The notes under the pieces are model-generated. The model saw only the letters and a list, made by a program, of their open reading frames with translations, was not told the origin of the DNA and made no database searches. From positions 1 through 45,845 of the forward strand of contig MICJ01000108.1 in NCBI GenBank assembly GCA_001830835.1: a stretch of 45,845 bases of DNA. Direction: 5' to 3'. This document shows, one piece after another, positions 15,370 to 41,895 of the stretch. Source of the DNA: Syntrophobacterales bacterium GWC2_56_13. Its GTDB lineage: Bacteria; Desulfobacterota; Syntrophia; Syntrophales; UBA5619. Both the position numbers and the translations under genes were made by a program. Each line of letters starts with the position of its first letter. Position 1 is the stretch's first letter.

Positions 15370-15472
15370 CAGGAAGCTCAGAATCAAATAGAGCGCGTTC
15401 AATAATTCAGTTTTAGGATTGGTTTTTCTTCTCTTATTGTTTAACTTTGTAACTATTATTAATTATTAAGCA

Positions 15473-15766
15473 AAAATAGTACTGAACAGGCTCAAATACC
15501 GGTATGATCCCGCACTGGCTACGGGGGTCGTGGCCGCCGGCGGCAGTCTCGGGATCCTCATCCCGCCGAGCACGATCTTCATCATCTACGGGATCATGAC
15601 GAAGCAGTCCGTAGGCAAGCTCTTCATGGCCGGCATCCTCCTCGCCGTTCTTTTCATCGTCACCATCGTGGTCTGGACCCACCTGCGGCCCGGTCTCTGC
15701 GTCCCCGCGCCGAAGGCGTCTCTCCGGGAGCGGATCGCCCTCTTTCTCCCGGGGTTGATGAAGTAA
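15473..15766 (+). pseudogene. Internal fragment of a TRAP-type DctM large permease gene
   Basis: The open frame reads ...RYDPALATGVVAAGGSLGILIPPSTIFIIYGIMTKQSVGKLFMAGI..., which is the conserved mid-protein DctM block. Only about 95 codons are present. There is no N-terminal half and no proper start, and it abuts an AT-rich stretch (15370-15490). Confidence 0.65.
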
Positions 15767-15775
15767 GGAGCGCCT

Positions 15776-17221
15776 ATGGATTTTTTCTTCGATCCACAGG
15801 GAGTGGCTGTGGTCGGAGCGACCCCGAACCCCCTCAAGGGGGGAAACGCCCTCCTGAAAAACATCCTGCTCGGTTATCGCGGCGGGATCTACCCCGTCAA
15901 TCCAAAATATCCGGAGATCGAGGGCCTGACCTGCTACCCATCCGTGAGCGTTATTCCCGGCCCGGTGGACCTCGCCGTCGTCTTCATCCCCGCCCCACTG
16001 GTTCCCGCGGCAGTGGAAGACTGCGCTGTGAAAGGCGTCCGGGGCGTCATCATTGAATCGGGCGGTTTCGCCGAAACCGGCCCGGAGGGGACCCGCCTGC
16101 AGAAGGCGCTCGCCGACATCGTCGCCCGCACCGGCATCCGCCTCTGGGGTCCCAACTGCATGGGCCTGGTCGATGTTGTCCACGGCCGCATCTTTTCCTT
16201 CATGGATCCGCGGGCGCAGGAGGAAAAGGAATTCATTCCGGGGACTGTTTCCCTCGTGGTGCAGAGCGGTATGCTCTCCGCCGTCTTTCTCATCGACATC
16301 ATGAGCCACGCTATGATGGGCGTGAGCAAGGTCTGTTCCGTGGGAAACAAGGTCGATGTCAATGAATGCGACATCCTGGAATATCTTTTGACGGATCCCG
16401 ACACAAGGGTCATCGGCTTTTACCTCGAATCCTTCTCCGACGGGCGGCGTTTCATGGACCTCTGCCGCCAAAGCGATAAATCGATCTGCGTTCTCAAGGG
16501 GGGAAGGAGCCGGAAGGGTGCGGAGGCGACGTTGAGCCATACGGCGTCCCTCGCCGGAAACCAGAGGATCATCTCATGCGCCCTCAGGCAGGCGGGGGTC
16601 TACGAAGCCTGGGATTTCAAGCAGATGATGGATTTCTGCCGGTCACTTGCCCTGATAAAACCCTCGGCCAACAGGTCGTCACGCCAAGTTGCAATTCTGA
16701 CCTTCAGCGGCGGGGCGGGCATCGTCTCCACCGATTTCGTCGAAGAACAGGGTCTTTCCATGGCTGAGCTCTCTGAATCCACCAGAACCTCTCTAAAAAA
16801 ACTATTCCCGGAGTGGATGCCGGTCGCCAATCCTGTCGACCTCTGGCCGGCCATGGAAAGTCACATCGGCGCCGATGTCGATGTCTACAGCCGCTCTCTC
16901 ACGGTCGTTCTTGGCGACCCGGAGGTGGATGCAGTCTTTCTCCATATTGCTGTCGGCACTCCCCGTATCAGGCTGAACCTTTCCGATCTGGCCGTTCAGA
17001 TTTGTACGTCCGGGAAACCGGTCATCGTCTGGATCATAGGCCGGAGGGACGATGTCTATGAGTTCCAGAAGCAGGCTCTCCCTTACGGAATTCCCGTCTT
17101 TACGGAACTCTCCCGCGCCGCGGAATGCCTGGCCGTAGTCCTCGGCGGCGGCCGTAGACGCCACCATCGTCCTGGAATGACGGAGCGGATGAATTTCCGG
17201 CGGGGAAATGTCTTTGGATAG
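15776..17221 (+). CDS. ADP-forming acetyl/acyl-CoA synthetase, alpha-type subunit (CoA-binding plus ligase-CoA domains)
   Basis: FFDPQGVAVVGATPNPLKGGN...IYPVNPKY.EI.G..CYPS......PVDLAVV..PA......V..C...GV.G.III..GFAE.G marks an NDP-forming acyl-CoA synthetase N-terminal domain. I saw no ATP-grasp part. Confidence 0.8.
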   Translation: MDFFFDPQGVAVVGATPNPLKGGNALLKNILLGYRGGIYPVNPKYPEIEGLTCYPSVSVIPGPVDLAVVFIPAPLVPAAVEDCAVKGVRGVIIESGGFAETGPEGTRLQKALADIVARTGIRLWGPNCMGLVDVVHGRIFSFMDPRAQEEKEFIPGTVSLVVQSGMLSAVFLIDIMSHAMMGVSKVCSVGNKVDVNECDILEYLLTDPDTRVIGFYLESFSDGRRFMDLCRQSDKSICVLKGGRSRKGAEATLSHTASLAGNQRIISCALRQAGVYEAWDFKQMMDFCRSLALIKPSANRSSRQVAILTFSGGAGIVSTDFVEEQGLSMAELSESTRTSLKKLFPEWMPVANPVDLWPAMESHIGADVDVYSRSLTVVLGDPEVDAVFLHIAVGTPRIRLNLSDLAVQICTSGKPVIVWIIGRRDDVYEFQKQALPYGIPVFTELSRAAECLAVVLGGGRRRHHRPGMTERMNFRRGNVFG

Positions 17222-23127: not shown

Positions 23128-23196
23128 ATGACATTTGTGACTGTGGGGAAATATCATGCCTGAAGAACCTGTAGTCAAACAAAGCGGTGTCAAGTT

Positions 23197-24702
23197 TCAG
23201 CAAACATCTTTGCTCGGCGCAGCAGGAATCTCCTTTCGCCGTGGCCAAATCTGATCCGGTGTCGGATTATCGACGTCTTTCGGATAGGTGAATCCGGCGA
23301 GATCGCTTTTCTCAAAGGACAATCCATAGGCCACAGAAAGACGCCGCATCCAGCGCGTTTCCGAATCATTGAGTTCAAGGTCGCGAGGTACTGGAAGTCC
23401 AACCACATCCGGCATGATTGATTGACGAAATAACTGTCCAGAAAATTGTCCGGTGAATGGATACATCACAGCAGTTTTATAGGGATGCTCACAATGGCCG
23501 CCACCGCCAAAAATCACTTTAATATCATTCAACTGGTCTTTGACGAACAATTTCTTCTTGGTGAAGGCAAGAGTGGCTTGCGTCCCTGCCTTCAAGCCCT
23601 CGGCTATCCATTCTCTTGCATACATCAACTCACGATCGCTATCTCCCTTTTCTTTTTTTTCCCGCCACCTTTCTAAAGATACCCTGTCCACACTGCCGGA
23701 CATGCTGGCAGCTTTGTGTTCAATTTGACTTGACCCCAAAGGAAATATGCCGCCGTGGAGATAGGTCAGATGTTCGCTTTGGTTATCATTTCGGCGCATG
23801 AAGATAAAAACGCTCTGGTCCACTGTCCCCGCACCAGTATCAGAAAACAGGTAAATTCCTGGGCTGGAGACTCGGGATTTGACGAATCCCTGGACATTGG
23901 AGCTCACCTCAGGATAGATAAAACAGGCCTTGTCCAAAGAGTCATCCATGATGTTCTTGTTTTTCTCCCTTATTGCGGCAAGCTCGGGTAGAGACACCGG
24001 TGGATGTCCGGCAAGCTCACTGGCAAGGCTCCATGCTTCGCAAAGGATCTTTTGGAAAAGTGCATTGACCTCCGGCCGTTCGGCATCGGCCACAGGCACG
24101 GCAAGATTGATCGCCATATAATCATTCGGTAGCTTCCCGAAATTTGGCAGTCTTCGCCGTACATCCTCCTGAATTTGGCCAAAGGCACCAGCCAGGAAGT
24201 ACACCGCACAGGCTTCCACGAATCCGGCCAACGGGCATCCATCCACCGATCCACCGTTTTCATAGTAAGGGGCAAGGACCGGGGCGTCCCACTCCTGCCG
24301 TGCTGTCTTCACCAATGCGTGTTTTAAGTGGTAGAGTCCGTTTTCAGGATAGTGGGACCGGCAGTTGCCGACATGTCCAATGACTCCATCCTTGAGCACC
24401 AATACACTGGAAATCAGGAATGGAAGCTCTTGCTCCTGAGTTTCGGGAGGAAGATGGACCCATGCCTTGTCGATCACGATATCTCGGCAGATGCATTTGC
24501 AGTAAGAAGTACCGAAATCGAACCCGATTTGAATGAAGTAAGGAGTGCGTTTAGTTTGTGCCAACTGGATAGAGTCTGAACTTTCATGTGGGGGCGCTTT
24601 GGTTTCGCGAAGAGATGGAATCGTTTTAGAATCGGTTTGCCGTTGGTCCCGGCCAAAGAGCATTTCCTTAATATTTTTAACTAATATCGAGAACTTGCCC
24701 AT
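23197..24702 (-). CDS. Hsp70/actin-fold (ASKHA) ATPase of unknown function, partner of the SNF2 helicase
   Basis: 501 aa. It carries IGFDFGTSYCK (phosphate-1 DxG), LFSDTGAGTVDQS (phosphate-2 DxGxGTxD) and VIFGGGGHCE (adenosine motif). There is no DnaK-type substrate-binding domain. The N-terminal ~55 aa are low-complexity. GGGGAAAGGGG lies upstream of the ATG. Confidence 0.7.
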   Translation of the reverse strand: MGKFSILVKNIKEMLFGRDQRQTDSKTIPSLRETKAPPHESSDSIQLAQTKRTPYFIQIGFDFGTSYCKCICRDIVIDKAWVHLPPETQEQELPFLISSVLVLKDGVIGHVGNCRSHYPENGLYHLKHALVKTARQEWDAPVLAPYYENGGSVDGCPLAGFVEACAVYFLAGAFGQIQEDVRRRLPNFGKLPNDYMAINLAVPVADAERPEVNALFQKILCEAWSLASELAGHPPVSLPELAAIREKNKNIMDDSLDKACFIYPEVSSNVQGFVKSRVSSPGIYLFSDTGAGTVDQSVFIFMRRNDNQSEHLTYLHGGIFPLGSSQIEHKAASMSGSVDRVSLERWREKKEKGDSDRELMYAREWIAEGLKAGTQATLAFTKKKLFVKDQLNDIKVIFGGGGHCEHPYKTAVMYPFTGQFSGQLFRQSIMPDVVGLPVPRDLELNDSETRWMRRLSVAYGLSFEKSDLAGFTYPKDVDNPTPDQIWPRRKEIPAAPSKDVC

Positions 24703-24725
24703 TGGGACATACCCCTTTCCCCAGT

Positions 24726-27700
24726 TTATGGCCCAGCAACACGGAATATTCCCGCACCTACCTCAGCCTGTTCCATGTCAATTTGTGCCTTCATATTCAG
24801 TTCGTTGAGGCGCTTCTCTTTATTTTCGATAGCCGTTTTCAACCGGCCTTCCGTCAAACGGATCACCCGAGGGTCACGGCTGGCCTCCCGTAATGTGCGG
24901 AGGCGCTGCTCATCCTGTCCGATACGTCGATCGAAGAATCCCTTGACCCTCTGCACTTTGATTTGCAGGATCGTTTCGTTCTCTGCTTCGAAGTCCGTTA
25001 CCTTTTCCGAAAAACGTTTGCCCAGATCCTCTTCCAACACTTTGTGTGCATGGAGCAATGCCTGTCTGTCGCAATCAACGTAATCCCACTCTCTGCTTCT
25101 GCGCAGGAGACATTGGAGGATGGCCTCAGACTCATCCGGTGAATAATTCTTTCCGTTCGACAATGACCGTATCCCATAGGCAAGCGTCTCACGGTTAGAG
25201 ATTCCTTTCAGCCGCCAGCGCTCAATGCGGTAGCAGTAATCGCCCGTCTGCAATTCGGGATGGGCAATCCGGATCGCAGACACATCAAAGAATCCATGCG
25301 CTCTGTCCTGATTGGTTCTTGTGATCCAACGAATCAGCGGAGAGATGTGATTCACGAAATGGACAACCCTTCTCTGGCTGAGCGGGAAACGCTGGAGCAC
25401 TTCGCGCCGGAAACTAATGTTGAACTCCTTTTGCCGAAACGGTCGTGCGCTTAGAGAGCGGTCATCACGGATGAAGCCGGACAACGAGGACTGAGCCTCA
25501 TAGGTCAATCGTATTTGGAGGCAGCCTTCGGCTGGCGTATTGTGATTAACTGTGCATCCCCGGAATTCCCGCTCGAAGAAATCCGTCAGGTAATCCTCCA
25601 ACTCTTCCGCTTGCAGGTAGCGTCCCTTTTCCCGGTCTTCCTCAATTTTTTGCTGTACATAATCCGAAAGGGCAATAAGGGCGTCTCCCGATTCTTCCAA
25701 CGCCTGAATGCGAAACAGATCTCCTTCAATGACATTTTTCGACTGTTCAATAAGAAGGTCTTGTTGATCAGGGGTCAAATCTTTGCTGAGCAATTCGACC
25801 GTCAGATTTTGCACCTCTTTTCCGATCACAGCCTCCAGATCGCCTAAGCTGTTGGCGAAGCGTTCGAGTTTGGTGTGCAGCCTGTCGTAGAGGCGTTCCT
25901 CGATGGTGTCCCGAACCTTGAAATTGACGATTGAGAGGCGTTTCGCTTGCTGACCTACGCGGTCGATACGGCCGATCCGCTGTTCGACACGCATCGGATT
26001 CCACGGCAGATCGTAGTTGGCCATCACCCGGCAGAACTGCAGATCGATGCCTTCACTGCCGACCTCCGAGGAGAGTAGGACTCTTGGCCCCCGAGGATCT
26101 TTGAAACGTTCGATTTCCTCCCAGCGTTGCTCGTTCGGAACGCCGCCATGGATCACGGTTACACCAATGCCCTCCGCCGTAAGACGGCGCATGAGGTAAG
26201 CGAGTGTCGGGCGGTAATAGGCGAAGATGACAGCCTTTTCATCCGGCAGAATCTCTACCAGCATTCGGTGCAGCTCTTTATACTTGCTGTCGTTTGCCTC
26301 GAAGTCATAGGCCAGCAACTGGACGATGTCCGCTTCGCCCAGATCCTCTCCGGGATCCTCGTCGAAGAGATCATCGAACACCTCCTCGCCCATCGCCTCA
26401 CCGAAGAGATCTCCGGGGTCCCCAAACCGGCCGTCCCGAACCTCCTGGGCCAGCACTGGCAGGCAGCTTGCGGCCCGAAGCTGCAGGCCTATTGCCTGAA
26501 AAACATGAAAAGGCCGACTATCCAGGCGGCACTTGCGCCGGACGATCTGGAGGATTGCCCGGTAAAGCTCCATCTCCTCGGCAGAATAAACAACCGAAAG
26601 GACTACAGGGTCACGTAGCGGGCGGTTTTCCTTTACCTGGACCCGGCGCGTACGATTCACATAACCGCCCAGCAGGTTCAGTTTCTCCACTATGTCCTGG
26701 CATTTCGCGAGCTGGGCTTTGTCCAGTCTGTCCAGATGTTCAAGTTGTTCCAGAAACTGTTTGAACAAGGGCGCTTGGCTGATGAACCGGCTTTCACTCA
26801 TGCCTGCAACCGCCGACGCCAATAGAGAGGTATCCACCGGCGTCCGGGCCAGCGCGTTGCCCGCCTGAACCGCAGGGCGATTGGCTTCAAGCAATTCCTC
26901 GAACAACCCCTGCGTTTCAAAAAAGCTTTCATCAATCAGACGCAAAAGGCTGTGGAGATCCGTGTTGCTGTTGTTGACAGGCGTCGCCGATACACAAAGC
27001 ACCGCACCCGCATTGGCCGCAAGCCCCTCGCCGAGATGGAAGGTAGTCGTCGCCGGGTTCCGCATATAATGCGCCTCATCGAAGATCACCATATCGAAGG
27101 GATCATAACCCAGAGACCAATGGTGCAGCTCACGCAGGAGGCTGGTTTTCGGAGAGCTGGCCGGTTTGGCTTCCGGCGGCTCTTCCAGAAAACGCAATTC
27201 GGCCTTCGGAGGGCGCAGCCCCGTATAGGTGGCGATTAGAACGAATGCATGACCCGGTCCGATTTTTTTCAGCTCTATTAGCTCCCGATCCAGCTCTGCA
27301 AATGCGACCACGCGGGCGTCGAAAAGAAACTTGCTCCGGAGCTCATCACGCCATTTGTTGGCCAGGATCTTCGGACAGACCACCAGCAGTCTTTGAGCTT
27401 GTCGTCGAGCCTGCAATTCAAGCCAGATCAGGGCTGACTCGATCGTCTTGCCCAAGCCTACTTCGTCGGCGATGATGAGCCGCTCGGTGGGTGAGTTGAA
27501 GAACTTGAGAACCGGCTTGAACTGGTAGGGATAGAAATCGATCTGCGCCGCCTCCATCGAATAGATCAGCGGCCGGTAACTGTTGCCGCCGCCTGGATAA
27601 GAGAGCTGCAACATCAGATGCGGACCCGCCTTCCGCCAATGGCCGGTGTATTGTCCGGGCTGTCCCGGATTGTTCCTATCGATCACCCATTCGCCGGGGG

Positions 27701-27746
27701 AAAAGGGGATTTCACCATTGGACGGATCATCGTTCACGGTTCTCAT
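24726..27746 (-). CDS. SNF2/RapA-like superfamily-2 helicase with a long uncharacterised C-terminal region
   Basis: 1006 aa. It carries YPYQ...IIADEVGLGKTIES (motif I), MVIFDEAHYMRN (II), CVSATPVNN (III), GSEGIDLQ (V) and PWNPMRVEQRIGRIDRVGQ (VI). The ~400 aa after motif VI have no motif I can assign. TAGGAG lies upstream of ATG 27746. Confidence 0.85.
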   Translation of the reverse strand: MRTVNDDPSNGEIPFSPGEWVIDRNNPGQPGQYTGHWRKAGPHLMLQLSYPGGGNSYRPLIYSMEAAQIDFYPYQFKPVLKFFNSPTERLIIADEVGLGKTIESALIWLELQARRQAQRLLVVCPKILANKWRDELRSKFLFDARVVAFAELDRELIELKKIGPGHAFVLIATYTGLRPPKAELRFLEEPPEAKPASSPKTSLLRELHHWSLGYDPFDMVIFDEAHYMRNPATTTFHLGEGLAANAGAVLCVSATPVNNSNTDLHSLLRLIDESFFETQGLFEELLEANRPAVQAGNALARTPVDTSLLASAVAGMSESRFISQAPLFKQFLEQLEHLDRLDKAQLAKCQDIVEKLNLLGGYVNRTRRVQVKENRPLRDPVVLSVVYSAEEMELYRAILQIVRRKCRLDSRPFHVFQAIGLQLRAASCLPVLAQEVRDGRFGDPGDLFGEAMGEEVFDDLFDEDPGEDLGEADIVQLLAYDFEANDSKYKELHRMLVEILPDEKAVIFAYYRPTLAYLMRRLTAEGIGVTVIHGGVPNEQRWEEIERFKDPRGPRVLLSSEVGSEGIDLQFCRVMANYDLPWNPMRVEQRIGRIDRVGQQAKRLSIVNFKVRDTIEERLYDRLHTKLERFANSLGDLEAVIGKEVQNLTVELLSKDLTPDQQDLLIEQSKNVIEGDLFRIQALEESGDALIALSDYVQQKIEEDREKGRYLQAEELEDYLTDFFEREFRGCTVNHNTPAEGCLQIRLTYEAQSSLSGFIRDDRSLSARPFRQKEFNISFRREVLQRFPLSQRRVVHFVNHISPLIRWITRTNQDRAHGFFDVSAIRIAHPELQTGDYCYRIERWRLKGISNRETLAYGIRSLSNGKNYSPDESEAILQCLLRRSREWDYVDCDRQALLHAHKVLEEDLGKRFSEKVTDFEAENETILQIKVQRVKGFFDRRIGQDEQRLRTLREASRDPRVIRLTEGRLKTAIENKEKRLNELNMKAQIDMEQAEVGAGIFRVAGP

Positions 27747-27790
27747 CTCCTAACAACCCAGAACTTTGTCGGAACCAGAGGCCCATATGG

Positions 27791-28519
27791 TCAATATTTC
27801 CATGTCTCATGTCCCAGGGGGCCTTTATTCAGCGTTTCACGCAAAAATCTCCACTTAGGTATGAACTTGTCCATATAAGCTGTAAAGCGATCATTATGGT
27901 GGCGTTCCAGCAGATGGACCAGTTCATGAACAAGGATGTATTCAAGACATTGGATGGGCTTTTTGGCCAGATCGAGATTGAGCCATATCCGGCGGACCTT
28001 GATATTACAGGCCCCCCACTTGGTCTTCATCTTCTTGATGCCCCAATCGGCAACCTGAACATCCAGGGTCTGCTGCCACTTATCGAGTAGCGGTGGGACC
28101 AGGGCTTTTAGTTGCTCCCGATACCATTGTTGTAAAATCTTCTCTCGACGCTCTGCATCCGTTCCCGGCCGCACGTAGAGGTCTATGGCTGCCTTGTTCC
28201 GGAGCACTACTTTCCCAGCCCCGTTTTGTTCTTTTGTATTCAATCGGTAACGCTGGCCCAAAAAATAGTGGCTCTCGCCGGTGACCATCTCTCGCCGGGA
28301 CTGACGCGGCTGATCTTCAAACTTCGCCTTCTGTCGTTTGATCCAGCCAAGCCTTGAGATCACCGCCAACTTTACTGCATCATCACTCACTGCCAACGGT
28401 GCCGCCACCCGCACACGGCCATAGGGAGGATACACGCCCAGGTGCAGATTCTTTATGGCCTTGCGCACCACATCGACGGTTATACCGCTGACTTTGATTC
28501 GATGTGCTTCAATATTCAT
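27791..28519 (-). CDS. YgjP/DUF45-family zinc metallohydrolase (M48/WLM-like)
   Basis: 242 aa with KTKWGAC and YILVHELVHLLERHH (HExxH), the family pattern. This family commonly follows hsdR. It overlaps the end of the hsdR C-terminal fragment by 11 nt. Confidence 0.85.
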   Translation of the reverse strand: MNIEAHRIKVSGITVDVVRKAIKNLHLGVYPPYGRVRVAAPLAVSDDAVKLAVISRLGWIKRQKAKFEDQPRQSRREMVTGESHYFLGQRYRLNTKEQNGAGKVVLRNKAAIDLYVRPGTDAERREKILQQWYREQLKALVPPLLDKWQQTLDVQVADWGIKKMKTKWGACNIKVRRIWLNLDLAKKPIQCLEYILVHELVHLLERHHNDRFTAYMDKFIPKWRFLRETLNKGPLGHETWKY

Positions 28520-31425
28520 GCTGATTTTTCACCAGTTCTAACGTTTTCTCTGTGAGTTCTTCGTCATCCTGAAGCATAGACTTGATGGCCAGCTTCACCT
28601 TCTTCACCTTGAAGGGATTGCTGCGCCAATCGTCCTGACGGTTCTCATGAATCGCATTATCCACGGCAAGCGCCAGCGCTTCGTTTTTGCCAAGGTTATC
28701 ATACAAAGCCCGCTTGGCGCCGGTGTCCATTGCAGTAGGATAGACATAACCCGTGGATGGATTATTTACCTTTCTGGTCAGATCGACAATCCTGGCCAGG
28801 TATTCCTGATAACCCAGCGCCTCTTTCTTGCGCTGTTCGATTAGTGCGTCCAGCAGTTCCGACATTTTTTCGTAATACTTCGGATTGATCGGCTGCTCGT
28901 CGATGATCAACTTACGGACGTTATTTTCGATGGTCTCAGCCACCGCCTCTCTGTTTTCCCTGATACCTTTGGGCAGTTCCTTCACGGCATCGCTTCCGCG
29001 CTCCACGATAAGCTCGACCAGCGATAGGTCGTCAAAGGCGGAAATCTTTTCGCTCTCTTCGGCGCGGATGTAAGTGTCGATCAGGTGGCGCATAGCCGGC
29101 TCGAGCATCTTGAGGTCGACATAGTCACCGCTGGCCAGCGTTACCGGAGTCCCTGGCGCAGAAATAGCGCAGATACGCAGCCGTATCCTTCGGCGCCTCC
29201 ACCGGTTCGCACAAAGCCTTTATAGCTTCCCGAGCCTCCTCCAAACGCTCCCGGGCTTTGGTCAGGCGGTCTTCCAGCAGTCCGGCCACATCTTCCTTGT
29301 CATAGCCGTCCAGGGCCCCGGAGGTGTAATCCTTGACCGCCCCCTCCAAGCTCTTGAACAGATCCTTGTAGTCGATGATATAGCCGCATTCCTTGTCGTC
29401 GCCGTCCAGCCGGTTCACCCGGCAGATGGCCTGAAACAGGCCGTGGTCGCGCATCTGCTTGTCGATATAAAGATAGGTTGCCGGGGGCGCGTCAAAGCCG
29501 GTCAGGAGCTTGTCCACCACGATCAGGAGCTTCATTTGTCCCGGTTCTTCAACGAACTTTTTCTTGGCCTGCTTCTCAAATTCTTCCGCTTTATTAACTG
29601 CCGTTTCCGGGGCTTCATTGAACCAGTCGGCCAGCATGTCCTGGTATATGGAATACTGGTGCAGGTGTTCGGTCTCTCCTTCACCGCTCTCCTCGCCTTT
29701 CAGGTCTGCCGTTGAAGGCCTGTAGGAGGTGACGATGGCACACTTACCAGCCAGTTCAGTCTTGGCAAAAAGCTCGTAGAATTTGCACGCCTGGTAGATG
29801 CTCCCCGAGACGAGCATGGCGTTGCCCCGACCGTCCATCAGCCTCGGCCTTTTTGCCATGTTCATCAGGATATCCGCCACGATCATTTCAAGCCGGGATT
29901 TTGAACTGAGGACCTTCTGCAGAGTGCCCCATCGTTGTTTTAGCTGCGCTTTGGCAAGGTCATTCAATCCCTTGGTCTTGGCTTCAAACCATTCGTCGAT
30001 CTTCTTCTGCGAGGTGATGTTCTGGTCGACGTCTCGCGCTTCATAGCGCAGATCGAGCACCACTTTGTCTTTCACCGCCTCGTCGAACTTGTAGGTGTGG
30101 ATGTAACGGCCGAACACCTCGATGCTTTTCTGCTTGTCGGCCTTCAAGAGCGGCGTCCCGGTGAAACCGATAAACATGGCGCTGGGCAGGATGGTCTTCA
30201 TCGCTTTGTGCAGCTCACCGGACTGGGTGCGGTGGCACTCGTCCACAAAGACGAAAAGGTTGCCCTTTGCCCAAAATCCAAGCGGCAGCGCCTTCTTCAG
30301 TTCCTCGATGTAGCCGGGGATGTCGCCGACGTCCTCACCTTCCTCCTTGCCTCCGAACTTGTGGATGAGCGAGCACATTAGCCACGGCGTTGTGGCGTTG
30401 AGGGTGGCAATCAGGTCCGCGCCGCTCCGGGTGCGGTAGATGTCTTCGTTGACACCCTTGAATACCTTCTCGATCTGTTCATCCAACTCCGTGCGGTCAG
30501 TGATGATCAGTGCTCGGGCCTCCTTCACGTTCTCGCGTATCCATTTAGTGAGCCACACCATCGTCAGGCTCTTGCCCGATCCCTGCGTGTGCCAGATGAT
30601 TCCCCCCTCGCCCCGTCTCATGTTCTCCTGGGCGGCACGCACACCGAAATACTGGTTGTGCCGGCAGAGCTTTTTTACTCCGGCATCGAAGACAATAAAG
30701 TCGTGGATGAGTTCAAGGAAGCGGGTTTTGTTGCATAGCTGTGCCAGCGCCCGTTCGAGCGGGTTTTCGATGCTGCTCTGTTCTTTCCAGCTGAGATAAT
30801 ACTTCTCCGGTGCCTGGATCGCTCCGTAGCGCAGCCCCTCGGTGTCGTTGCCGGCCATGATCCACTGCATCGTGGAGAAGAAAGGCTCAATGAAGACCTT
30901 CTTTTGGTTGTCCAGATTCTGACGGATGCCCTCGGCCACCGAGACGGTGGAACGCTTCAGCTCCAGCACCCCCAGTGCGATTCCGTTGACATAGATCACG
31001 ACATCCGGTCGTTTACCGTGGGCTTTGTGGTCTACTGCCACGACGGTGACTTCTTCGGCGATGGCGAAGTCATTCTCTTGTGGGTGTTTCCAGTCGACCA
31101 GCCAGACGGTCTGCGTATTCTCGCTCACATCGGGCTTCACCTTCACGCCGTAGCGGAGCAGATCATAGACGGCGCGGTTGCGATCGTAGAGGCTTTTGCT
31201 TGTGTCGCCGGCCGTCTTTTCGAGAATATGCAGCGCCCGCGTAATAAGCGCATCCTCCACACCCTGCTTTTTCAGCCAGGCGCGCAGCAAGGTAGGCTCA
31301 ATGTTTGCGTTACCCTCTCGGTCGGTCCAGTCGCCGAGATAGTCGTAGTTGAGGCTCTCACAATGGAACTTTACCACGCGCGCTTGGGTTTTCTTTTCCT
31401 TCTGGCCGACTGTACTCATATCCAT
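28509..31425 (-). pseudogene. hsdR: Type I restriction enzyme R subunit, split into a 766-aa ORF (29125-31425) and a 199-aa ORF (28509-29108) by an internal deletion with a frameshift
   Basis: The N-terminal ORF has a PD-(D/E)xK-like VLELKR, helicase motifs HTQGSGKSLTM and FVDECHRTQ, and TGFDAP. The C-terminal ORF reads LEPAMRHLIDTYIRAEESEKISAFDD (DUF3387-type HsdR C-terminus). The two frames meet at AACGCTGGCCAGCGGTGA (about 29125-29142). Confidence 0.85.
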
Positions 31426-31443
31426 GCTTCTCAGTATCCTGTC

Positions 31444-33243
31444 CTAACCAAACAGACCCTGACACCTTGCAATAGCCCGCTTAATTTTGGTGTCGGAGAA
31501 AGCCTCACGTCCTAGTTTGGGCTGCCATTCCGGATCGATATGCAACACATTTTTAACATTTCGTAACTTGATTTCTCTGCCATCTGCCTGCAAATCTTGA
31601 ATGGCCATAGCTATTGTGGCCAGAAGTTCTATTTCATCTTTCTTTTCGTAGCGAAACTGCTCAAGCCACTCCAAGGCATTACTGCCATACCATTTGTTAA
31701 AATAGACAAGAGCCTGATTAATATTCTCGCCAGCGATGAAACCGGAATACTTGCCGGACCGCACTACCTGAACATAGCCATTCTTTTGCGCAATGCCTTC
31801 TGGTCCCTTGTATCGGGTAGATGGGTTATATGGACCAGCGGCCTTTTTCAGATAGCCTTCAGGGTTCCCTTCTACATGCCTGTGCATCAGGTAGGCCAGC
31901 TTGGTATAGCGCAATCTGCCAAGGGGATAGTCATGGGAGCCGAATTTACTGACGAGAGCCGCAATCACCACTGCCTCATTGAACGCCCAATTGTGCTTAG
32001 CCATGGAGGTGGAATGGCTTTTTTGCAGATGAATATCAGCCCTGTCTTCAGGCCATTTATGAGCCACCAGCCTGATCCTCCCGGTGAGCAGTTCCTGCAT
32101 CGTGCCCTGCTTGAGGGCACGGGTCTTGTCGCGCCTCGCTTCGAGGGCGGCGATCTCGGCGTCCATGTCGGAAAGGACGGCGGCGATGGCAATTTGTTCA
32201 AGGAGGTTTGGCACACCGATTTCTATCGGCATCAGGTCCACGGGGTGAATGTGGGGCTGGGCTCCGCCGGTTTGTCTCTTGTATATAATATCCTGCCGAA
32301 GGAGAAGTTGAAAGAAAATGAACTCGATCGAGTAGTCGCTTCCCTCGCTGATCGTGGAACAATCCGAAGCGAACAGCGGAATATCAAAGAATGCAACGTA
32401 TCCGGCATTTGCTCCTGAGGCACTCACCGTTACTGTCTTTCCAGTACGGTTTGCCAGATTGTGAAAATAGGCCGGCTTCTTGCCGCCAGCGATCACGGGA
32501 ATACTACCGGGTGCAGAGTCCTTCTCAGTGATGAGTTGACCCTTTCTGATCTCAACAACATTCCCCAACCGCTTCTCCTCCCACGCCTTGCTGAAGCCCG
32601 GCAGGCGGGTCTGGCCGGTTAGGAGCTGCTGCATGGTGGCCTGTTTGAGGTCGCGCTTCTTGGCGATGAGCTTGTCTAGCGCACCGATCAGCGCATCCAC
32701 ATCGGAGAGCGCCGCCGCAATGGTGCGTTGTTCGGGTAGTGGGGGTAAAATGATCGGGTATTTTCTAACAATATCAACATTGAGGTTGCCAACTCCACCT
32801 CCAAGGTAAACCTGATCCTTCGCGCGTTTCTTGTAGGGCGCACTGTTCAGCAACTGCATTAAGAAGTAGTTATCCAGAGATTTTCTTGGCTTGATAAGAG
32901 TCAAAGAGACATAGACGGAAAACTCAAAATCAACATCAATAACCGCAGCCTCTCCAATGGTTCCAACACGGGAATACAGGACGTCCCCCCTTTGAGGTGG
33001 ATTATTCCTGTATAGTTGGCGGTGTAAGCTCTCACCGATGTGCTTATAGTCCCTCCAGAGTATTTGGCCTTCTTTTACGTTTGTGCTTGACAAGAATGGG
33101 TATCCACGGCTTTCGGTAACGTAGTCTGGGGTGGCTGCGATTCCGCAGGTAATCAAATCCGTAACTTCAGTGAATTGCTTCACCTCCCACTCATCTGGAA
33201 TCACCCCTACCTCGGTCTGTTTGTATCCCGGCCTCAGCTCCAT
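31444..33243 (-). CDS. hsdS: Type I R-M specificity subunit HsdS fused in frame to an extra 206-aa C-terminal domain
   Basis: There are two target-recognition domains, each followed by the conserved helix (LPEQRTIAAALSDVDALIGALDKLIAKKRDLKQATMQQLLTG and LLEQIAIAAVLSDMDAEIAALEARRDKTRALKQGTMQELLTGRIRL). The frame then continues for 206 more residues (31444-32064). It overlaps the hsdM end by 10 nt. Confidence 0.85.
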   Translation of the reverse strand: MELRPGYKQTEVGVIPDEWEVKQFTEVTDLITCGIAATPDYVTESRGYPFLSSTNVKEGQILWRDYKHIGESLHRQLYRNNPPQRGDVLYSRVGTIGEAAVIDVDFEFSVYVSLTLIKPRKSLDNYFLMQLLNSAPYKKRAKDQVYLGGGVGNLNVDIVRKYPIILPPLPEQRTIAAALSDVDALIGALDKLIAKKRDLKQATMQQLLTGQTRLPGFSKAWEEKRLGNVVEIRKGQLITEKDSAPGSIPVIAGGKKPAYFHNLANRTGKTVTVSASGANAGYVAFFDIPLFASDCSTISEGSDYSIEFIFFQLLLRQDIIYKRQTGGAQPHIHPVDLMPIEIGVPNLLEQIAIAAVLSDMDAEIAALEARRDKTRALKQGTMQELLTGRIRLVAHKWPEDRADIHLQKSHSTSMAKHNWAFNEAVVIAALVSKFGSHDYPLGRLRYTKLAYLMHRHVEGNPEGYLKKAAGPYNPSTRYKGPEGIAQKNGYVQVVRSGKYSGFIAGENINQALVYFNKWYGSNALEWLEQFRYEKKDEIELLATIAMAIQDLQADGREIKLRNVKNVLHIDPEWQPKLGREAFSDTKIKRAIARCQGLFG

Positions 33244-35521
33244 ACCGCCCCCATCTTCTTGAGGTGTTCATCCACGCGGGCAGCGAGGGTTTCTAATTCC
33301 TGGGTTAGCTTCGGCAGCGGTCTGGCATAGCGTTCAGCCAGTTGGTGGATGCGGCCGCTGAGCGCCTGCGACACGCGGTCCAGCTGACTCGGCACGGCGG
33401 CTGCGATAGTGGCCAGCCATTTGTCATCCACAACCAGTGTCTTGATCTCGTCCTCCGTGAGTTTGCCATACTTGGCCGCAATCTTGGCCTCCAATTTCTT
33501 CTGGGCGTCTTTGACTCGGTTGTTGGTGTCGGTCTCCTGTTCGATGAGGGCGAGGTAGTCCATCAGCACGTTCAGCTCATCCGCAAATTTCGCATCATCC
33601 TTGATTTCCTTAATCCGTGCAATGACAGCAGCTTTGGTTACTTTCCCTTTGTCATTTTTCACCTCGGCCAGCAGCCCTTCGTCGCCCCCGTGTTCCTCGG
33701 CCATTTCTTCCATGCTCTGCACAGGGGCGGCAGCCTCGGATTCCAGGATTTCAATGGCGGCCTGCTCCGCTGCAAAGTAATGGGCAACGAGAACATTAAC
33801 GGGAATCAGATCGGCCTTGAACTTCCGCTTCCCCACCGTGAAGTCCGGTTTTTCCTTCGTCTTCCTGTCCTTGTCCTCAATGATGAGCCGGGGCTTGGTG
33901 GCTTCTTTCCAGCCGTCGCTGACGATCATATACATCGTCCTGCATGGTCTCGGCCCAGAAATCCATCAGGTGCTGATAGATGTCGTAGGCATTGATCAGC
34001 CGGGCCTTCCGAAAGGTCTCCAGCAAGTCTTCGGAGAGGGTTTCGATGAGCGTCTTGGGGTGGTCGTCCTTGGCAATGCCAGCGAGACGCGGGGCGTTGG
34101 CGGCCGTCCACTGCGCGAACAGTGTGGCGACGGAAGCGTTGAAAGCGGTGAACTCTGCATGGCTGAAGATGGCGGCCTTGATGTCGGCCACGGGCGGCTT
34201 CAGGCGGCTGTAACCGGGGCGTCCGATCGACTCGAATAGGAGCGGACGCAGGCTGGGAAAGATCCGCCAGTACCGATCAAGGTCGTCGATATCGCGGTCG
34301 GGAATGCCGCCGCGCAGGTGTCCATCGATGTCCTGTAAATCATCGGGCTCGGTGCAGTCAATGTAGCGTGGAAGGTTAAGGTTGAAGTCGTTTTTCGGGT
34401 CGCTGATCTCCGAGAGCGGTACCATTCGCGAATACTTGGGAATCTCCACCTGCCGTGTGAAGGTGTCCACGACCCTATGGATGTCCTGGGCGCGCAAGCG
34501 GTTCTTGTTGCCGTCCTTGATGTAACCCTTAGGAGGCGTCGATCATGAAAATGCCCTTGCGGGCATGGGCGTTCTCCTTGTCGAGCACAAGAATGCAGGC
34601 GGGAATGCCGGTGCCGTAAAAGAGGTTGGCCGGCAGGCCGATGATACCCTTGATGAAGCCGCGCTTGACAATCTCTCTGCGGATGGCAGCATCGGCGCCG
34701 CCGCGAAACAGTACGCCGTGGGGATGGATGACCGCGCCCTTCCCCGTGCTTTTGAGGCAGGCGAGAATGTGCAGCAGGAAAGCGAAATCGCCATTCTTCT
34801 GCGGTGGAATCCCGTAAGCGAAGCGGCCGTAAAGGTCGTTGGCCGGGTCGAAGCCGTTGCTCCATGCCTTGGATGAGAACGGGAAATTGGCAACGACGAA
34901 GTCGAACGTCTTGAGACGGCCGTCGCTGCCTTTGAAATGCGGGCTGGAGAGGGTATTGTCCTTCCAGATTTCGGCTGTAGTACAGTCGTGGAGAATCGTG
35001 TTCATCCGCGCCAGCGCGGCGGTGGCGTTGTCCATTTCCTGCCCGTAAAGGGCAAGGTCGAGGCCGGTTTGGCTTTTTGCTTCGTCGTGGGCCTTGAGGA
35101 GGAGAGACGCCGATCCGCAGGTGGGATCGTGGGCGGATTGGCTGGCGCTCCTGGCGTTGCCGATGCCGATGACCTTTGCCATGATGCGGGAGACCTCTGC
35201 CGGGGTGTAGAACTGCCCCTTGCTCTTGCCCGACTCGGTGGCGAAGTGACGCATGAGATACTCGTAGGCGTCGCCCAGGAGGTCGTCACCTTCGGCACGG
35301 TTGTTGCGGAAGTCGAGGGCCGGCGTGCTAAAGATGGCCACCAGATTGGAAAGGCGGTCCACCATTTCCTTTCCTCTACCAAGCTTTCCCTCGTCGTTGA
35401 AATCGGCTACATCGATGATACCCCTGAGACCGTTGACCTCGGCCAACTTGCCGATGATCTTGTTGATCTTGTCACCAATTTCCTTGTCGCCCTTGAGTTC
35501 TATACTTTTCTTTGGAGTGTG
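33234..35521 (-). pseudogene. hsdM: Type I R-M methyltransferase subunit HsdM, disrupted into three frame segments with the N-terminal domain missing or degenerate
   Basis: Segment A (34529-35521) reads GDKEIGDKINKIIGKLAE...LLGDAYEYLMRHFATESGKSKGQFYTPAEVSRIMAKVIG, DPTCGSASLL (motif I) and VANFPFS (motif IV). Segment B (33877-34527) reads KGYIKDGNKNRLRAQDIHRVVDTF.... Segment C (33234-33935) reads MYMIVSDGWKE.... The segments join in different frames, and an in-frame TGA lies at 35522-35524 upstream of A. Confidence 0.85.
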
Positions 35522-40916: not shown

Positions 40917-41024
40917 AGCGTGCGGAGCGAGGCAATCCTGTAAATAGACGTTACATTTTAAGGCTAACACGTTGCTCAGCTCCACGCAATGATAGAAAAC
41001 CCGTCGTTCCCATCTCGCGCCCTC

Positions 41025-41861
41025 TCAGGGACGAAAGCTCAGCGGAGGCGGGGCGGCGTAACCGTCATTGTCCCAGAAGCGGTTGGGCGGGCGGCGGGGC
41101 AGCTTGGCGCATTCAACCACCCCCAATTTACAGAGGGTCGAACGCCACTCGTACTTGAGGTAGATGGTTTCCGTCGCCCATTTCTCCGGCTCGAAGGCCA
41201 CGATCTGCGAGGGGGAATACTCATCCCGGCCATAGCCGGTGCCGGCGCTCTCCAGCGCCTGTTCCGACCGGGCGTCCTTTTCCTTCATCAGCTTGCCGGC
41301 GGTTTCTGCTTTGTCGGCCGAACCTTCCGCCTTGCCTTCATAGCCGCGTGGGAAGGAGGGGGGTGCCTGGAACAGGGGTTTCGGCAGTTCGCAGCGCCGC
41401 ACCTCGGGATAGACCGCCACGGCGATCACCCCCATAGCGCTCTCGTCGCCGAAGGCCGCGGCGTAGGAGTCGGGTACGTCGGTGAAGTAGAAACGGTTGA
41501 TGTGATCCTGGGTTGTGCGCCAGCCCGCAAATTCTCCCGAACTGTATGGTTCCAGGATGTACATGCGCTCGCTGTTCTTCAGCCAGGATTTCGTGCCGCT
41601 GATGATGTTGCGGCCATCCACCGCGATGACCAGCCCGACCCGCCGGTTGAGACGGTTCTTCACCTCGATGCGGTAGTGGTCCCCTTTGATCGCCTCGGCG
41701 TACACCTTGCGCACGCCATGGCGCATTTTCACCGGGTAGGTCGGCAACGTCCGGCCGTCATCGGTCACGATCCGCACCTCCACGGCGTCCCCGACGCCCC
41801 CTGCCCACGCGCTTGCCGTGCACACCACGATTGCCAGAATGACGATTGCAATGGTCTTCAT
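41025..41861 (-). CDS. Secreted hypothetical protein, first gene of the ECF operon
   Basis: It has the signal peptide MKTIAIVILAIVVCTASAWA and AAGGAGGAG upstream. I recognise no family. The overlapping 364-aa + ORF is an antisense artefact. Confidence 0.6.
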   Translation of the reverse strand: MKTIAIVILAIVVCTASAWAGGVGDAVEVRIVTDDGRTLPTYPVKMRHGVRKVYAEAIKGDHYRIEVKNRLNRRVGLVIAVDGRNIISGTKSWLKNSERMYILEPYSSGEFAGWRTTQDHINRFYFTDVPDSYAAAFGDESAMGVIAVAVYPEVRRCELPKPLFQAPPSFPRGYEGKAEGSADKAETAGKLMKEKDARSEQALESAGTGYGRDEYSPSQIVAFEPEKWATETIYLKYEWRSTLCKLGVVECAKLPRRPPNRFWDNDGYAAPPPLSFRP

Positions 41862-41895
41862 GATCTGCTCCTCCTTTTAAGTTGTCTTTGTAACC

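What the first reader, a model, noticed from the sequence alone, without database searches (positions are those of the whole stretch)
23197..27746. Intact SNF2 helicase plus Hsp70/actin-fold ATPase pair at the end of a decayed type I R-M operon: candidate undescribed defence module
What the sequence shows: two co-directional minus-strand genes are separated by only 23 nt, with a G-rich SD in the gap. Gene 1 (1006 aa) carries a complete SNF2 motif set (DEVGLGKT, DEAH, SATP, QRIGRIDRVGQ). It also has a short N-terminal module and about 400 C-terminal residues that I cannot assign, with no visible nuclease motif. Gene 2 (501 aa) carries the three ASKHA signatures (DFGTS, DTGAGTVD, FGGGG) but no chaperone substrate-binding domain, so it is not a DnaK/HscA paralogue. 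Context: the pair is the distal end of a single-strand gene train (hsdM-hsdS-hsdR-ygjP-SNF2-ATPase) inside an AT-richer block that also holds AbiE. The neighbouring hsdM, hsdR and COG1373 genes are all broken, yet these 4.5 kb of coding sequence are uninterrupted, which suggests ongoing selection. Established knowledge: SNF2 helicases occur in DISARM (DrmD) and Zorya (ZorD), and Hna is a single-gene helicase defence. None of these is paired with an Hsp70-like ATPase, and none of their partner genes (drmABC, zorABC) is present. Inference: this is a two-gene (possibly three with the upstream DUF45 hydrolase) NTP-dependent conflict system that I cannot match to a named family.
Basis: partly seen in the sequence, partly recalled or inferred. 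Interest (0 to 1): 0.85.

Follow-up and report, generated by a model that had tools for sequence, protein, structure and literature searches.

The report
Conserved SNF2 helicase–Hsp70-like ATPase gene pair
A RapA/DrmD-like SNF2 motor gene and a gene for a divergent Hsp70-type ATPase always travel together as a compact two-gene cassette, mostly inside bacterial anti-phage defence islands, which makes them a credible undescribed defence module, although the copy in this window has lost a conserved 45-residue piece of the helicase.

Summary
Both ORFs exist exactly as described: 24726-27746(-), 1006 aa, SNF2; and 23197-24702(-), 501 aa, separated by a 23-nt gap. All the quoted motifs are present. 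An AlphaFold model of the 501-aa protein matches only Hsp70 nucleotide-binding domains, and the protein has no hit above threshold in Pfam, NCBIfam or PADLOC.

The pairing is real and deep. In 18 of 18 independent loci, including two chosen from the SNF2 side, the genes are adjacent on the same strand, and gene order is reversed in two lineages. Their divergences correlate (r = 0.97). No third gene recurs.

Homology to near relatives starts about 31 nt before the SNF2 start codon and ends about 13 nt after the second stop codon, so the unit is a 4.6-kb cassette. Neighbours vary: BREX, type I R-M, Azaca, DRT1, GmrSD/HEC-05, Dsr1, AbiE, CRISPR, integrases and plasmids.

- The SNF2 is a full-length RapA/DrmD-like protein (PADLOC DrmD E = 4e-187), but it scores below NCBI's DrmD cutoff and has no DISARM partners.
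- YgjP is not part of the module.
- The local SNF2 is not intact. It uniquely lacks 45 conserved residues through a clean 135-bp in-frame deletion.

Eight literature searches found no description of this pair. Verdict: an undescribed variant of SNF2-based defence modules. Its function is inferred, not shown.

The parts
24726..27746 (-). RapA/DrmD-like SNF2 (Swi2/Snf2) ATPase, 1006 aa. It has an N-terminal beta-barrel domain, a helicase core with intact motifs I, II, III and VI, and a DrmD/RapA-type C-terminal module (alpha/beta domain, long coiled-coil hairpin, terminal beta-hairpin). No nuclease domain was detected.
27564..27572 (-). Junction of a 135-bp (45-codon) in-frame deletion within codon 60 of the SNF2 gene. 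The deletion removes the conserved helical linker between the N-terminal beta-domain and ATPase lobe 1 (P0271 residues 61-105).
   Evidence: Protein alignment A2, DNA alignment with L024, model of P0271
24703..24725 (-). 23-nt intergenic spacer with a G-rich Shine-Dalgarno-like GGGGAAAGGGG. In relatives the spacing ranges from a short overlap to ~100 nt, which fits co-transcription and possibly coupled translation.
23197..24702 (-). Hsp70-NBD-like (ASKHA-fold) ATPase, 501 aa. It has a conserved N-terminal helix (residues 3-15), a disordered linker (16-47) and an NBD-like core (about 55-470). All nucleotide-binding motifs are conserved: D61/G63/T64, K126, P263-E264, D287-G289-T292-D294, G398-G401 and the AVAYGLS motif. 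There is no substrate-binding domain.
23184..27777 (-). Extent of the two-gene cassette. Nucleotide homology to the nearest relatives (L024, L023) begins ~31 nt upstream of the SNF2 ATG and ends ~13 nt after the stop codon of the Hsp70-like gene. The flanks beyond those points are unrelated.
27791..35446 (-). Context only, not part of the module: YgjP-like metallopeptidase (27791-28519) and a decayed type I R-M operon, with hsdR split into 28509-29108 and 29125-31425, hsdS at 31444-33243, and hsdM fragments across 33234-35446.

Best explanation
The region is one copy of a widespread, self-contained two-gene cassette that most likely acts in defence against phages or other mobile DNA.

Shown:
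- The two genes are an obligate, co-inherited pair.
- One encodes a RapA/DrmD-type SNF2 ATPase with intact motor motifs.
- The other encodes a divergent Hsp70-NBD-fold protein whose ATP-binding and hydrolysis motifs are conserved across the whole family.
- No nuclease or other effector domain is detectable in either protein.
- The cassette lands in variable defence islands and on plasmids.

Inferred mechanism:
- The two proteins form a complex in which the SNF2 subunit is an ATP-driven dsDNA translocase or remodeller. Like RapA on RNA polymerase, it would engage and strip or stall protein-DNA complexes on invading DNA.
- The faster-evolving Hsp70-like subunit is a nucleotide-gated clamp that senses an infection cue or holds the motor inactive until one appears.
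- Because the cassette has no nuclease, it either blocks replication or transcription without cutting DNA, or it exposes DNA to co-resident nucleases such as HsdR, GmrSD or PLD proteins.

In this window the SNF2 copy carries a 45-residue in-frame deletion of a conserved linker, so it may be weakened or dead.
For: Linkage:
- 18 of 18 independent loci have the two genes adjacent on the same strand.
- Two lineages (L015, L020) have the reverse gene order.
- A further 31 exact contig-length matches link the hit lists.

Co-divergence: r = 0.97 over 105 locus pairs. Mean identity is 39% for the Hsp70-like protein and 52% for the SNF2.

No third conserved gene. Tight cassette boundaries.

Active-site conservation: SNF2 motifs are invariant. 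Hsp70-type motifs are conserved even in members ~23% identical to the window protein.

Folds: Hsp70 NBD. RapA matched over its full length.

Defence context: BREX-1 in two loci, type I R-M in two, plus Azaca, DRT1a, HEC-05/GmrSD, Dsr1, PDC-S06, AbiE in three loci and CRISPR I-D. Integrases, transposases and plasmids are also present.

The related SNF2 clade is a component of DISARM I, BREX-3 and ARMADA, and ArmA is experimentally essential for ARMADA II defence (PMC13463889; 10.1101/2025.09.15.676423).

The patchy distribution, low GC relative to the flanks and frequent pseudogenisation are typical of defence genes.
Against: - There is no experimental evidence of defence for any member.
- No effector domain was found, so the killing or blocking step is unknown.
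- Physical interaction was not tested, because no multimer prediction was available.
- Some loci have no defence neighbours: L011 lies among metabolic genes and L018 has none.
- The sample of loci is small (18) and biased towards long metagenomic contigs.
- The SNF2 model has low overall confidence (pLDDT 69, pTM 0.44).
- The local copy has a deletion in a conserved segment.
Confidence: 0.55

Rival explanations
1. The pair is not autonomous. It is an accessory or booster module for methylation-based self/non-self systems (type I R-M, BREX, PglX-type MTases). It would play the role that the related SNF2 proteins DrmD, BrxHII and ArmA play inside DISARM, BREX-3 and ARMADA, and rely on the neighbour's methyltransferase for discrimination and on its nuclease for killing.
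For: Six of about 16 informative loci place the pair co-oriented and directly beside such a system:
- type I R-M in the window and in L023, where hsdR is intact and immediately upstream;
- BREX-1 in L001 (PglZ-BrxL-GmrSD-pair) and L025 (pair-BrxA-BrxB-BrxC-PglX);
- PglX-like MTases in L012 and L013.

The cassette has no nuclease or methyltransferase of its own. All characterised relatives of this SNF2 clade work inside MTase-containing systems.
Against: - The pair stands without any MTase nearby in L005, L011, L015, L018, L020 and L021.
- The partner system differs from locus to locus, and its position (upstream or downstream) varies.
- Cassette homology ends within ~31 nt and ~13 nt of the two ORFs.
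- No neighbour family recurs.
- BREX and R-M loci are known hotspots where unrelated defence genes accumulate.
Confidence: 0.2
2. The cassette serves the mobile element that carries it, for example in plasmid or island maintenance, in competition with other elements, or as an anti-defence function, rather than serving host immunity.
For: It occurs on plasmids (Leptolyngbya NZ_CP046159 and the conjugative Sphingobium pSF1, next to partition and relaxase genes) and in islands bounded by integrases, resolvases and transposases. It behaves as a compact mobile cassette.
Against: - Most copies are chromosomal and sit among bona fide defence genes.
- There are no homologues in 50,697 phage genomes, in IMG/VR by pattern scan or among phage proteins in BFVD.
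- Defence genes are themselves commonly carried on such elements, so this context does not discriminate between the two readings.
Confidence: 0.1
3. Housekeeping reading: a RapA paralogue with a dedicated Hsp70-like co-factor that recycles or rescues RNA polymerase (or another DNA-bound machine) under stress, unrelated to genetic conflict.
For: RapA is the closest solved structure over the full length. Hsp70-type ATPases are classic remodelling partners. A few loci (L011, L018) lie among ordinary genes.
Against: - The score against NCBIfam RapA is 139 bits, against a cutoff of 576.
- The distribution is patchy and cassette-like, with unrelated flanks even between 90%-identical copies.
- GC is lower than in the host flank.
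- Frameshifts, an IS insertion and a deletion occur in 4 of 18 independent loci, plus one variant copy (L004).
- Most loci have defence-island neighbours.
Confidence: 0.07
4. Local-copy caveat, which is compatible with any of the explanations above: in this genome the cassette is a decaying relic, like the neighbouring hsdM and hsdR, and no longer functions.
For: The window has a unique 45-aa deletion of a block that is near-invariant in the 26 other clade members. The adjacent type I R-M genes and the AAA_14/DUF4143 gene are fragmented.
Against: - The deletion is in frame.
- All catalytic motifs and the whole downstream gene are intact.
- The lost segment is a linker rather than a catalytic element.
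- A MAG consensus or assembly artefact cannot be excluded.
Confidence: 0.35

Closest known systems
DrmD of class 1 DISARM (with its relatives BrxHII of BREX type 3 and ArmA of ARMADA)
   Same: The SNF2 has the same full-length RapA-like architecture: N-terminal beta-domain, Swi2/Snf2 core and a characteristic C-terminal module. PADLOC DrmD model PDLC02623 matches residues 60-991 at E = 4e-187. NCBIfam DISARM_DrmD aligns residues 483-992. The setting is a defence island, often beside MTase-based systems.
   Different: - The score is below NCBI's DrmD equivalog cutoff (333 vs 610 bits).
- DrmA, DrmB, DrmC, DrmMI, PglX/PglZ and the YprA-type helicase are absent from the window, and none travels with the pair in the other 17 loci.
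- Instead the helicase is always paired with an Hsp70-like ATPase, which none of those systems contains.
RapA (E. coli RNA polymerase-associated Swi2/Snf2 ATPase)
   Same: It is the best structural and sequence match among solved structures, aligned over about 1,040-1,110 columns at E = 4e-25. RapA also lacks a nuclease and acts by ATP-driven remodelling.
   Different: Identity is about 16-18%, and the NCBIfam RapA score is far below the cutoff. RapA is a conserved housekeeping gene with no Hsp70-like partner. This clade is cassette-borne and patchy.
CnuD / Hsp70-like modules of CoCoNuT and NxD-McrBC systems (Bell et al., eLife 2024, PMC11090510)
   Same: These are divergent Hsp70-like ATPases recruited into a predicted defence system as a non-chaperone regulatory or recognition subunit.
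   Different: - CnuD has NBD plus SBD, often with HEAT repeats, and degenerate Walker-A-like motifs. It partners McrB/McrC GTPase systems.
- The protein here is NBD-only with fully conserved catalytic motifs, and it partners an SNF2 helicase.
- No McrBC is present in any locus. Direct homology between the two families was not tested.
Hsp70-family components of GTPase-centric conflict systems (Kaur et al., eLife 2020, PMC7159879)
   Same: They include stand-alone Hsp70 NBD proteins without a peptide-binding domain in predicted conflict systems.
   Different: Those are linked to GAP1-N2/DO-GTPases, tubulin, GrpE and DnaJ, not to SNF2 helicases. None of those partners occurs here.
Hma / BR systems (DUF499 ATPase, DUF1156 MTase, SNF2-nuclease) and Hna, ZorD
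   Same: These are SNF2-family helicases used in anti-phage defence. PADLOC HmaA hits at E = 5e-45 and ZorD at about 1e-20.
   Different: The matches cover the helicase core only. Those helicases carry or accompany nucleases and different partners. None has an Hsp70-like partner.

Membership tests
DISARM class 1 (DrmD) | The SNF2 helicase reaches the curated DrmD equivalog score (NCBIfam NF038317, cutoff 610 bits) | tested here: not met
   332.6 bits, and only residues 483-992 align as the best stretch. PADLOC's uncurated DrmD model PDLC02623 does match full length at E = 4e-187, so this is a sister clade rather than DrmD proper.
DISARM class 1 (DrmD) | Core partners DrmA (YprA-type helicase) and DrmB (DUF1998), with or without DrmC (PLD) and the DrmMI methyltransferase, in the same locus | tested here: not met
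   Every substantial ORF of the island (23-39 kb) is accounted for and none is DrmA, DrmB, DrmC or DrmMI. None accompanies the pair in the other 17 loci.
BREX type 3 (BrxHII) / ARMADA (ArmA) | A RapA-like SNF2 encoded together with a PglX-like methyltransferase, plus PglZ/BrxC (BREX-3) or the YprA-like ArmC (ARMADA) | tested here: not met
   The window has only a decayed type I hsdM and no PglX, PglZ, BrxC or YprA gene. PADLOC BrxHII scores 151 bits on a partial match.
RapA (RNAP-recycling ATPase) | Reaches the NCBIfam PRK04914 equivalog cutoff (576 bits) | tested here: not met
   138.8 bits. The fold resemblance is full length, so it is RapA-like in architecture but not a RapA orthologue.
Swi2/Snf2 ATPase superfamily | SNF2-related N-lobe and Helicase_C with motifs I (GxGKT), II (DEAH), III (SAT) and VI (QRxGRxxRxGQ) | tested here: met
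   Pfam PF00176 at 84 bits (cutoff 24.9) and PF00271 at 83 bits (cutoff 23.5). The motifs are read directly from the translation and are invariant in the clade.
ASKHA superfamily, Hsp70-NBD-like branch | Two-lobed actin/Hsp70 ATPase fold with phosphate-1, connect-1, phosphate-2 and adenosine motifs | tested here: met
   The AF2 model has pLDDT 80. Foldseek top hits are all Hsp70-family chains, with TM up to 0.57 normalised to NBD-only targets. The motifs GxDxGT[SA], [FL]K, PE[VI]xA, DxGxGTxD, GGGG and AVAYGLS are conserved in all 18 aligned sequences, distant members included.
Canonical Hsp70/DnaK/HscA chaperones | Match to the Pfam HSP70 family and presence of a C-terminal substrate-binding domain | tested here: not met
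   There is no hit above threshold in Pfam or NCBIfam. The model ends after the NBD with a ~40-residue tail.
CoCoNuT (CnuD Hsp70-like component) | The Hsp70-like NBD/SBD protein is encoded with, or fused to, McrB-like GTPase and McrC (DUF2357) genes | tested here: not met
   No McrB or McrC gene lies in the window island or in any of the 18 loci. Sequence relatedness to CnuD itself was not tested.

The most novel reading that the evidence does not exclude
The pair is a nuclease-free immune (or conflict) machine of a new type: a prokaryotic Swi2/Snf2 remodeller that works as a holoenzyme with an actin/Hsp70-fold ATPase. It would parallel the way eukaryotic INO80, SWR1 and BAF remodellers use actin and Arp subunits docked on a helix N-terminal to the motor. 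On this reading, the conserved helical segment just upstream of the ATPase core (the one deleted in this window) is the docking or regulatory element. The complex would defend by evicting or stalling polymerases or replisomes on foreign DNA rather than by cutting it.
Probability: 0.12. Interest if true: 0.85.

Novelty: new variant of a known kind. Interest (0 to 1): 0.62.

Why it matters
RapA-like SNF2 helicases are shared by DISARM, BREX-3, ARMADA and BR/Hma systems, yet what they do in defence is still unclear.

Here the same type of motor appears in its most stripped-down setting. It has one obligate partner, no methyltransferase and no nuclease, which makes it a simple system in which to ask what the motor does.

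The partner is also unusual. It is an Hsp70-NBD-fold ATPase with an intact active site, and the family is large: 999 representatives at 50% identity with E ≤ 1e-10. It has no Pfam, NCBIfam or PADLOC model and is annotated only as 'hypothetical'.

If the pair is validated, three things follow:
- It would add a defence gene pair that current finders miss or mislabel as an orphan 'DrmD'.
- It would give the Hsp70-like family a function.
- It would provide a bacterial example of an SNF2 motor working with an actin/Hsp70-fold ATPase.

Tried and rejected
1. Three-gene system including YgjP/DUF45: rejected. No neighbour family recurs among 119 flanking ORFs, L023 lacks YgjP, and the cassette boundary lies 31 nt upstream of the SNF2 ATG.
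2. Incomplete DISARM, BREX-3, ARMADA or Hma: rejected, because the partner genes are absent.
3. CoCoNuT-type or GTPase-centric Hsp70 systems: rejected, because there is no McrBC, GTPase or tubulin.
4. Hidden effector in the N-terminal extensions of longer variants (Hsp70-like proteins of 744-800 aa, an SNF2 of 1365 aa): Pfam finds only weak coiled-coil-type signals.
5. Phage origin: no hits in INPHARED, in the IMG/VR pattern scan or among phage proteins in BFVD.
6. Promoter and terminator scan of 22.8-28.7 kb: counts were no higher than in shuffled sequence, so it was uninformative.
7. N-terminal truncation as the cause of the short SNF2: rejected. The N-terminus is identical to that of the homologues and the loss is internal.
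8. The genome-contig scan with a single sequence found only 2 loci.
9. Sequence-level hhalign against DnaK was weak. The Hsp70 assignment therefore rests on the fold search and the motifs.
10. Eight literature searches (one search was rejected for syntax) and five papers read found no description of an SNF2 plus Hsp70-like pair.
11. A heterodimer prediction was not possible with the tools available (single-chain only, 1200-aa limit, both jobs used).


Full report
**1. Observation**

They are separated by 23 nt that contain GGGGAAAGGGG.

Pfam finds SNF2-rel_dom and Helicase_C in the first protein and nothing in the second. NCBIfam also finds nothing for the second. PADLOC gives only a non-significant PDC-M61B match (E = 0.0097).

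The surrounding island runs from about 23.0 to 38.9 kb. It contains a YgjP-like peptidase, an hsdR split into two ORFs, hsdS, hsdM in at least three fragments, AbiEii/AbiEi and a truncated AAA_14/DUF4143 gene. It is flanked by ileS/lspA on one side and a sigma/anti-sigma pair on the other. GC across the pair is 0.48-0.57, against 0.57-0.62 for the ileS side. The window matches a Syntrophobacterales MAG (GWF2_56_9).

**2. The 501-aa protein**

An AlphaFold2 model built on 35 homologues is confident (pLDDT 80.3, pTM 0.78). It shows an N-terminal helix (residues 3-15), a disordered linker (16-47) and a folded core (about 55-470).

All 50 top Foldseek PDB hits are Hsp70-family chains (BiP, DnaK, mortalin, Hsp110 and relatives), mostly nucleotide-binding-domain constructs, at E = 1e-9 to 5e-8 and 12-15% identity. 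The viral library likewise returns only Hsp70s of giant viruses and closteroviruses, and no phage protein at significant E-values. There is no substrate-binding domain.

The nucleotide-binding motifs are GxDxGT[SA], a [FL]K that aligns with the DnaK Lys70 region, PE[VI]xA, DxGxGTxD and GGGG. The Hsp70-type AVAYGLS motif is also present. All are conserved in members only about 23% identical to the window protein, which argues for an active ATPase.

The family is large and unannotated. It has at least 488 clusters at 90% identity in the word-index search. In the exhaustive search it has 1830 representatives at 50% identity with E ≤ 1e-3, 999 with E ≤ 1e-10 and 185 with E ≤ 1e-30. Every source name is 'hypothetical protein'.

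**3. The SNF2 protein**

It is not unassignable. One PADLOC DrmD model (PDLC02623) matches residues 60-991 at E = 4e-187. NCBIfam DISARM_DrmD aligns residues 483-992 but scores 333 bits against a cutoff of 610. RapA scores 139 bits against a cutoff of 576.

RapA is the closest solved sequence. It is also by far the closest structure to the model of the 90%-identical P0271: E = 4e-25 over about 1,100 aligned columns, while the next hit, Chd1, is at 8e-10. The SNF2 model has low overall confidence (pLDDT 69, pTM 0.44), but its N- and C-terminal parts are confident.

The 'unassigned' C-terminal ~400 residues are therefore the C-terminal module shared by the RapA/DrmD/BrxHII/ArmA clade. In the model this is an alpha/beta domain, a long coiled-coil hairpin and a terminal beta-hairpin, at pLDDT 75-95. 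No nuclease domain is detected by any library. Source databases call these proteins only 'helicase-related' or 'SNF2 family helicase', never DrmD.

**4. Not intact**

Close homologues are about 1,048 aa long. The N-terminus of the window's protein is identical to theirs. What the window's protein alone lacks is a 45-residue internal block, alignment columns 80-124, which is present in all 26 other clade members and carries many near-invariant positions (GHFGKVRDLQRLITYEKLKGTLHEV).

The DNA alignment with L024 shows a clean 135-bp deletion in otherwise ~97%-identical sequence, with 2-bp (TG) microhomology at about 27567-27569. In the model the lost segment is the helical linker between the N-terminal beta-barrel and ATPase lobe 1.

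Related copies are also often damaged. SNF2 frameshifts occur in L004, L011 and L014, and an IS element cuts the Hsp70-like gene in L029.

**5. The pairing is obligate**

I examined 18 independent loci: the window, L001, L005, L008, L010-L015, L018, L020-L025 and L029. In all 18 an SNF2 of this clade lies directly beside the Hsp70-like gene on the same strand, with spacing from a short overlap to about 100 nt.

- The set includes very distant members (P0175, P0263, a Leptolyngbya plasmid, Shinella, Sphingobium pSF1).
- Two lineages have the reverse gene order.

Pairwise identities of the two proteins correlate at r = 0.97 across 105 locus pairs. The Hsp70-like protein is the faster-evolving partner, at 39% mean identity against 52%.

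No third gene recurs among 119 neighbouring ORFs. Homology with near relatives begins about 31 nt upstream of the SNF2 ATG and ends about 13 nt after the second stop codon. The unit is therefore a 4.6-kb two-gene cassette, and YgjP belongs to the type I R-M neighbourhood, not to the cassette.

**6. Context**

Neighbours differ from locus to locus but are mostly defence genes or mobility genes:

| Neighbour | Loci |
|---|---|
| BREX type 1 | L001 (PglZ, BrxL, GmrSD); L025 (BrxA/B/C, PglX) |
| Type I R-M | window; L023 (intact there) |
| Azaca and AbiE | L008 |
| DRT1a, GmrSD_N and a PglX-like MTase | L012 |
| HEC-05, PDC-S06, integrase | L013 |
| Dsr1, NERD, AbiE | L014 |
| CRISPR I-D on a plasmid | L020 |
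| Resolvase and integrase | L021 |
| Conjugative plasmid with PLD-like and GIY-YIG genes | L022 |

Two loci (L011, L018) have no defence neighbours. No homologue was found in phage collections.

**7. Comparison with known systems**

The related SNF2 clade serves in DISARM I (DrmD), BREX-3 (BrxHII), ARMADA (ArmA, which is experimentally required for defence) and BR/Hma systems. In all of these it works with a PglX-like or DUF1156 methyltransferase and other partners, never with an Hsp70-like protein.

Hsp70-like proteins have been predicted in CoCoNuT/McrBC systems and in GTPase/tubulin systems, never with SNF2. The auxiliary effectors catalogued for BREX are nucleases.

Eight literature searches found nothing on this pair. 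The membership tests for DISARM, BREX-3/ARMADA, RapA, canonical Hsp70 and CoCoNuT all fail on defining features. Membership of the Swi2/Snf2 and ASKHA superfamilies is met.

**8. Mechanism**

What is shown: an obligate, co-inherited pair of two NTPases with conserved active sites, no detectable effector domain, and cassette-like mobility into defence islands.

What is inferred (confidence about 0.55 for a defence or anti-MGE role, lower for the details): the SNF2 subunit is a dsDNA translocase or remodeller that acts on protein-DNA complexes of invading DNA, by analogy with RapA on RNA polymerase. The faster-evolving Hsp70-like subunit would be a nucleotide-gated sensor or regulator. The outcome would be either a non-nucleolytic block or a hand-over of DNA to co-resident nucleases.

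The main rival (about 0.2) is an accessory role for methylation-based systems, suggested by 6 of about 16 informative loci lying directly beside R-M, BREX or PglX genes. Against it are the stand-alone copies and the tight cassette boundaries. MGE-selfish and housekeeping roles are less likely. Independently of all these, the local allele may be non-functional (about 0.35).

**9. Verdict**

Three corrections apply: the helicase is DrmD/RapA-like, YgjP is excluded, and the local SNF2 is deleted rather than intact.

It is best classed as a new variant of the known kind 'SNF2-helicase-based defence modules'. Interest is moderate to high (0.62). The partner family and the nuclease-free two-ATPase architecture are unusual and the system is experimentally tractable, but function rests on context alone and many candidate defence pairs already exist.

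Noticed in passing
window 27564-27572 (SNF2 codon 60): A clean 135-bp in-frame deletion relative to all 26 aligned homologues, with TG microhomology at the junction. It is visible only by comparison with relatives. It could be a genuine hypomorphic or dead allele, a population variant or a MAG assembly artefact.
   Followed up: yes
window 31444-33243 (-): The hsdS ORF is 599 aa, about 150-200 aa longer than typical type I specificity subunits. The best PADLOC Specificity_I model covers only residues 3-393. The C-terminal ~200 aa may be an extra or partial target-recognition domain, or a fusion created by the same decay that broke hsdM.
   Followed up: no
window 28509-29108 / 29125-31425 and 33234-35446 (-): hsdR is split into 766-aa and 199-aa ORFs, which cover positions 1-759 and 835-1023 of a 1034-position model, so about 75 positions are missing. 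hsdM is in at least three overlapping ORF fragments. In the near relative L023 the equivalent type I R-M operon upstream of the pair is intact and has two hsdM genes.
   Followed up: partly
window 23197-24702 (-), residues 1-47 and 498-501: The Hsp70-like protein has a conserved, possibly amphipathic N-terminal helix (consensus MxKFSxLIxxxKEKLFG), then a ~30-residue disordered linker, and a nearly invariant C-terminal KDxC. The helix is present only in the close (~494-aa) subfamily. It could be a docking peptide for the SNF2 or a membrane-targeting helix like those of MreB and FtsA.
   Followed up: partly
L015 5452-7803, L020 8155-10389 (also P0269, P0251): In the distant variants with reversed gene order, the Hsp70-like protein carries a 150-360-aa N-terminal extension with no Pfam domain. 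P0269 shows only weak coiled-coil-type signals.
   Followed up: partly
L005 5066-9981: One sub-lineage has a 1365-aa SNF2 with a ~315-aa N-terminal extension. It is preceded by a 273-aa gene that overlaps it by 4 bp and gives weak alpha/beta-hydrolase hits, so this may be a three-gene variant.
   Followed up: no
L022 4886-14581 (Sphingobium fuliginis pSF1, NZ_CP041018): The most distant version looks like a four- or five-gene operon: SNF2, the Hsp70-like gene (587 aa), a 533-aa unknown, an 822-aa protein with weak PLD/ZacB similarity, and then a GIY-YIG nuclease. This may be a form of the module that carries its own nuclease.
   Followed up: partly
L023 1-2655: A second, unrelated SNF2-family gene (best PADLOC hit PDC-M27C) sits upstream of the type I R-M operon that precedes the pair, so this island carries two different SNF2 helicases.
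   Followed up: no
L001 12282-15908 (-): A 1208-aa protein with ParB_N and a weak MgsA_C hit lies immediately downstream of the pair and has no PADLOC match. It is a possible further uncharacterised defence-island gene.
   Followed up: no
window 40989-42083 (+) and 15434-16540 (-): Two ORFs of 364 aa and 368 aa have no Pfam match. The second overlaps a CoA-ligase-like gene on the opposite strand and is probably spurious.
   Followed up: no
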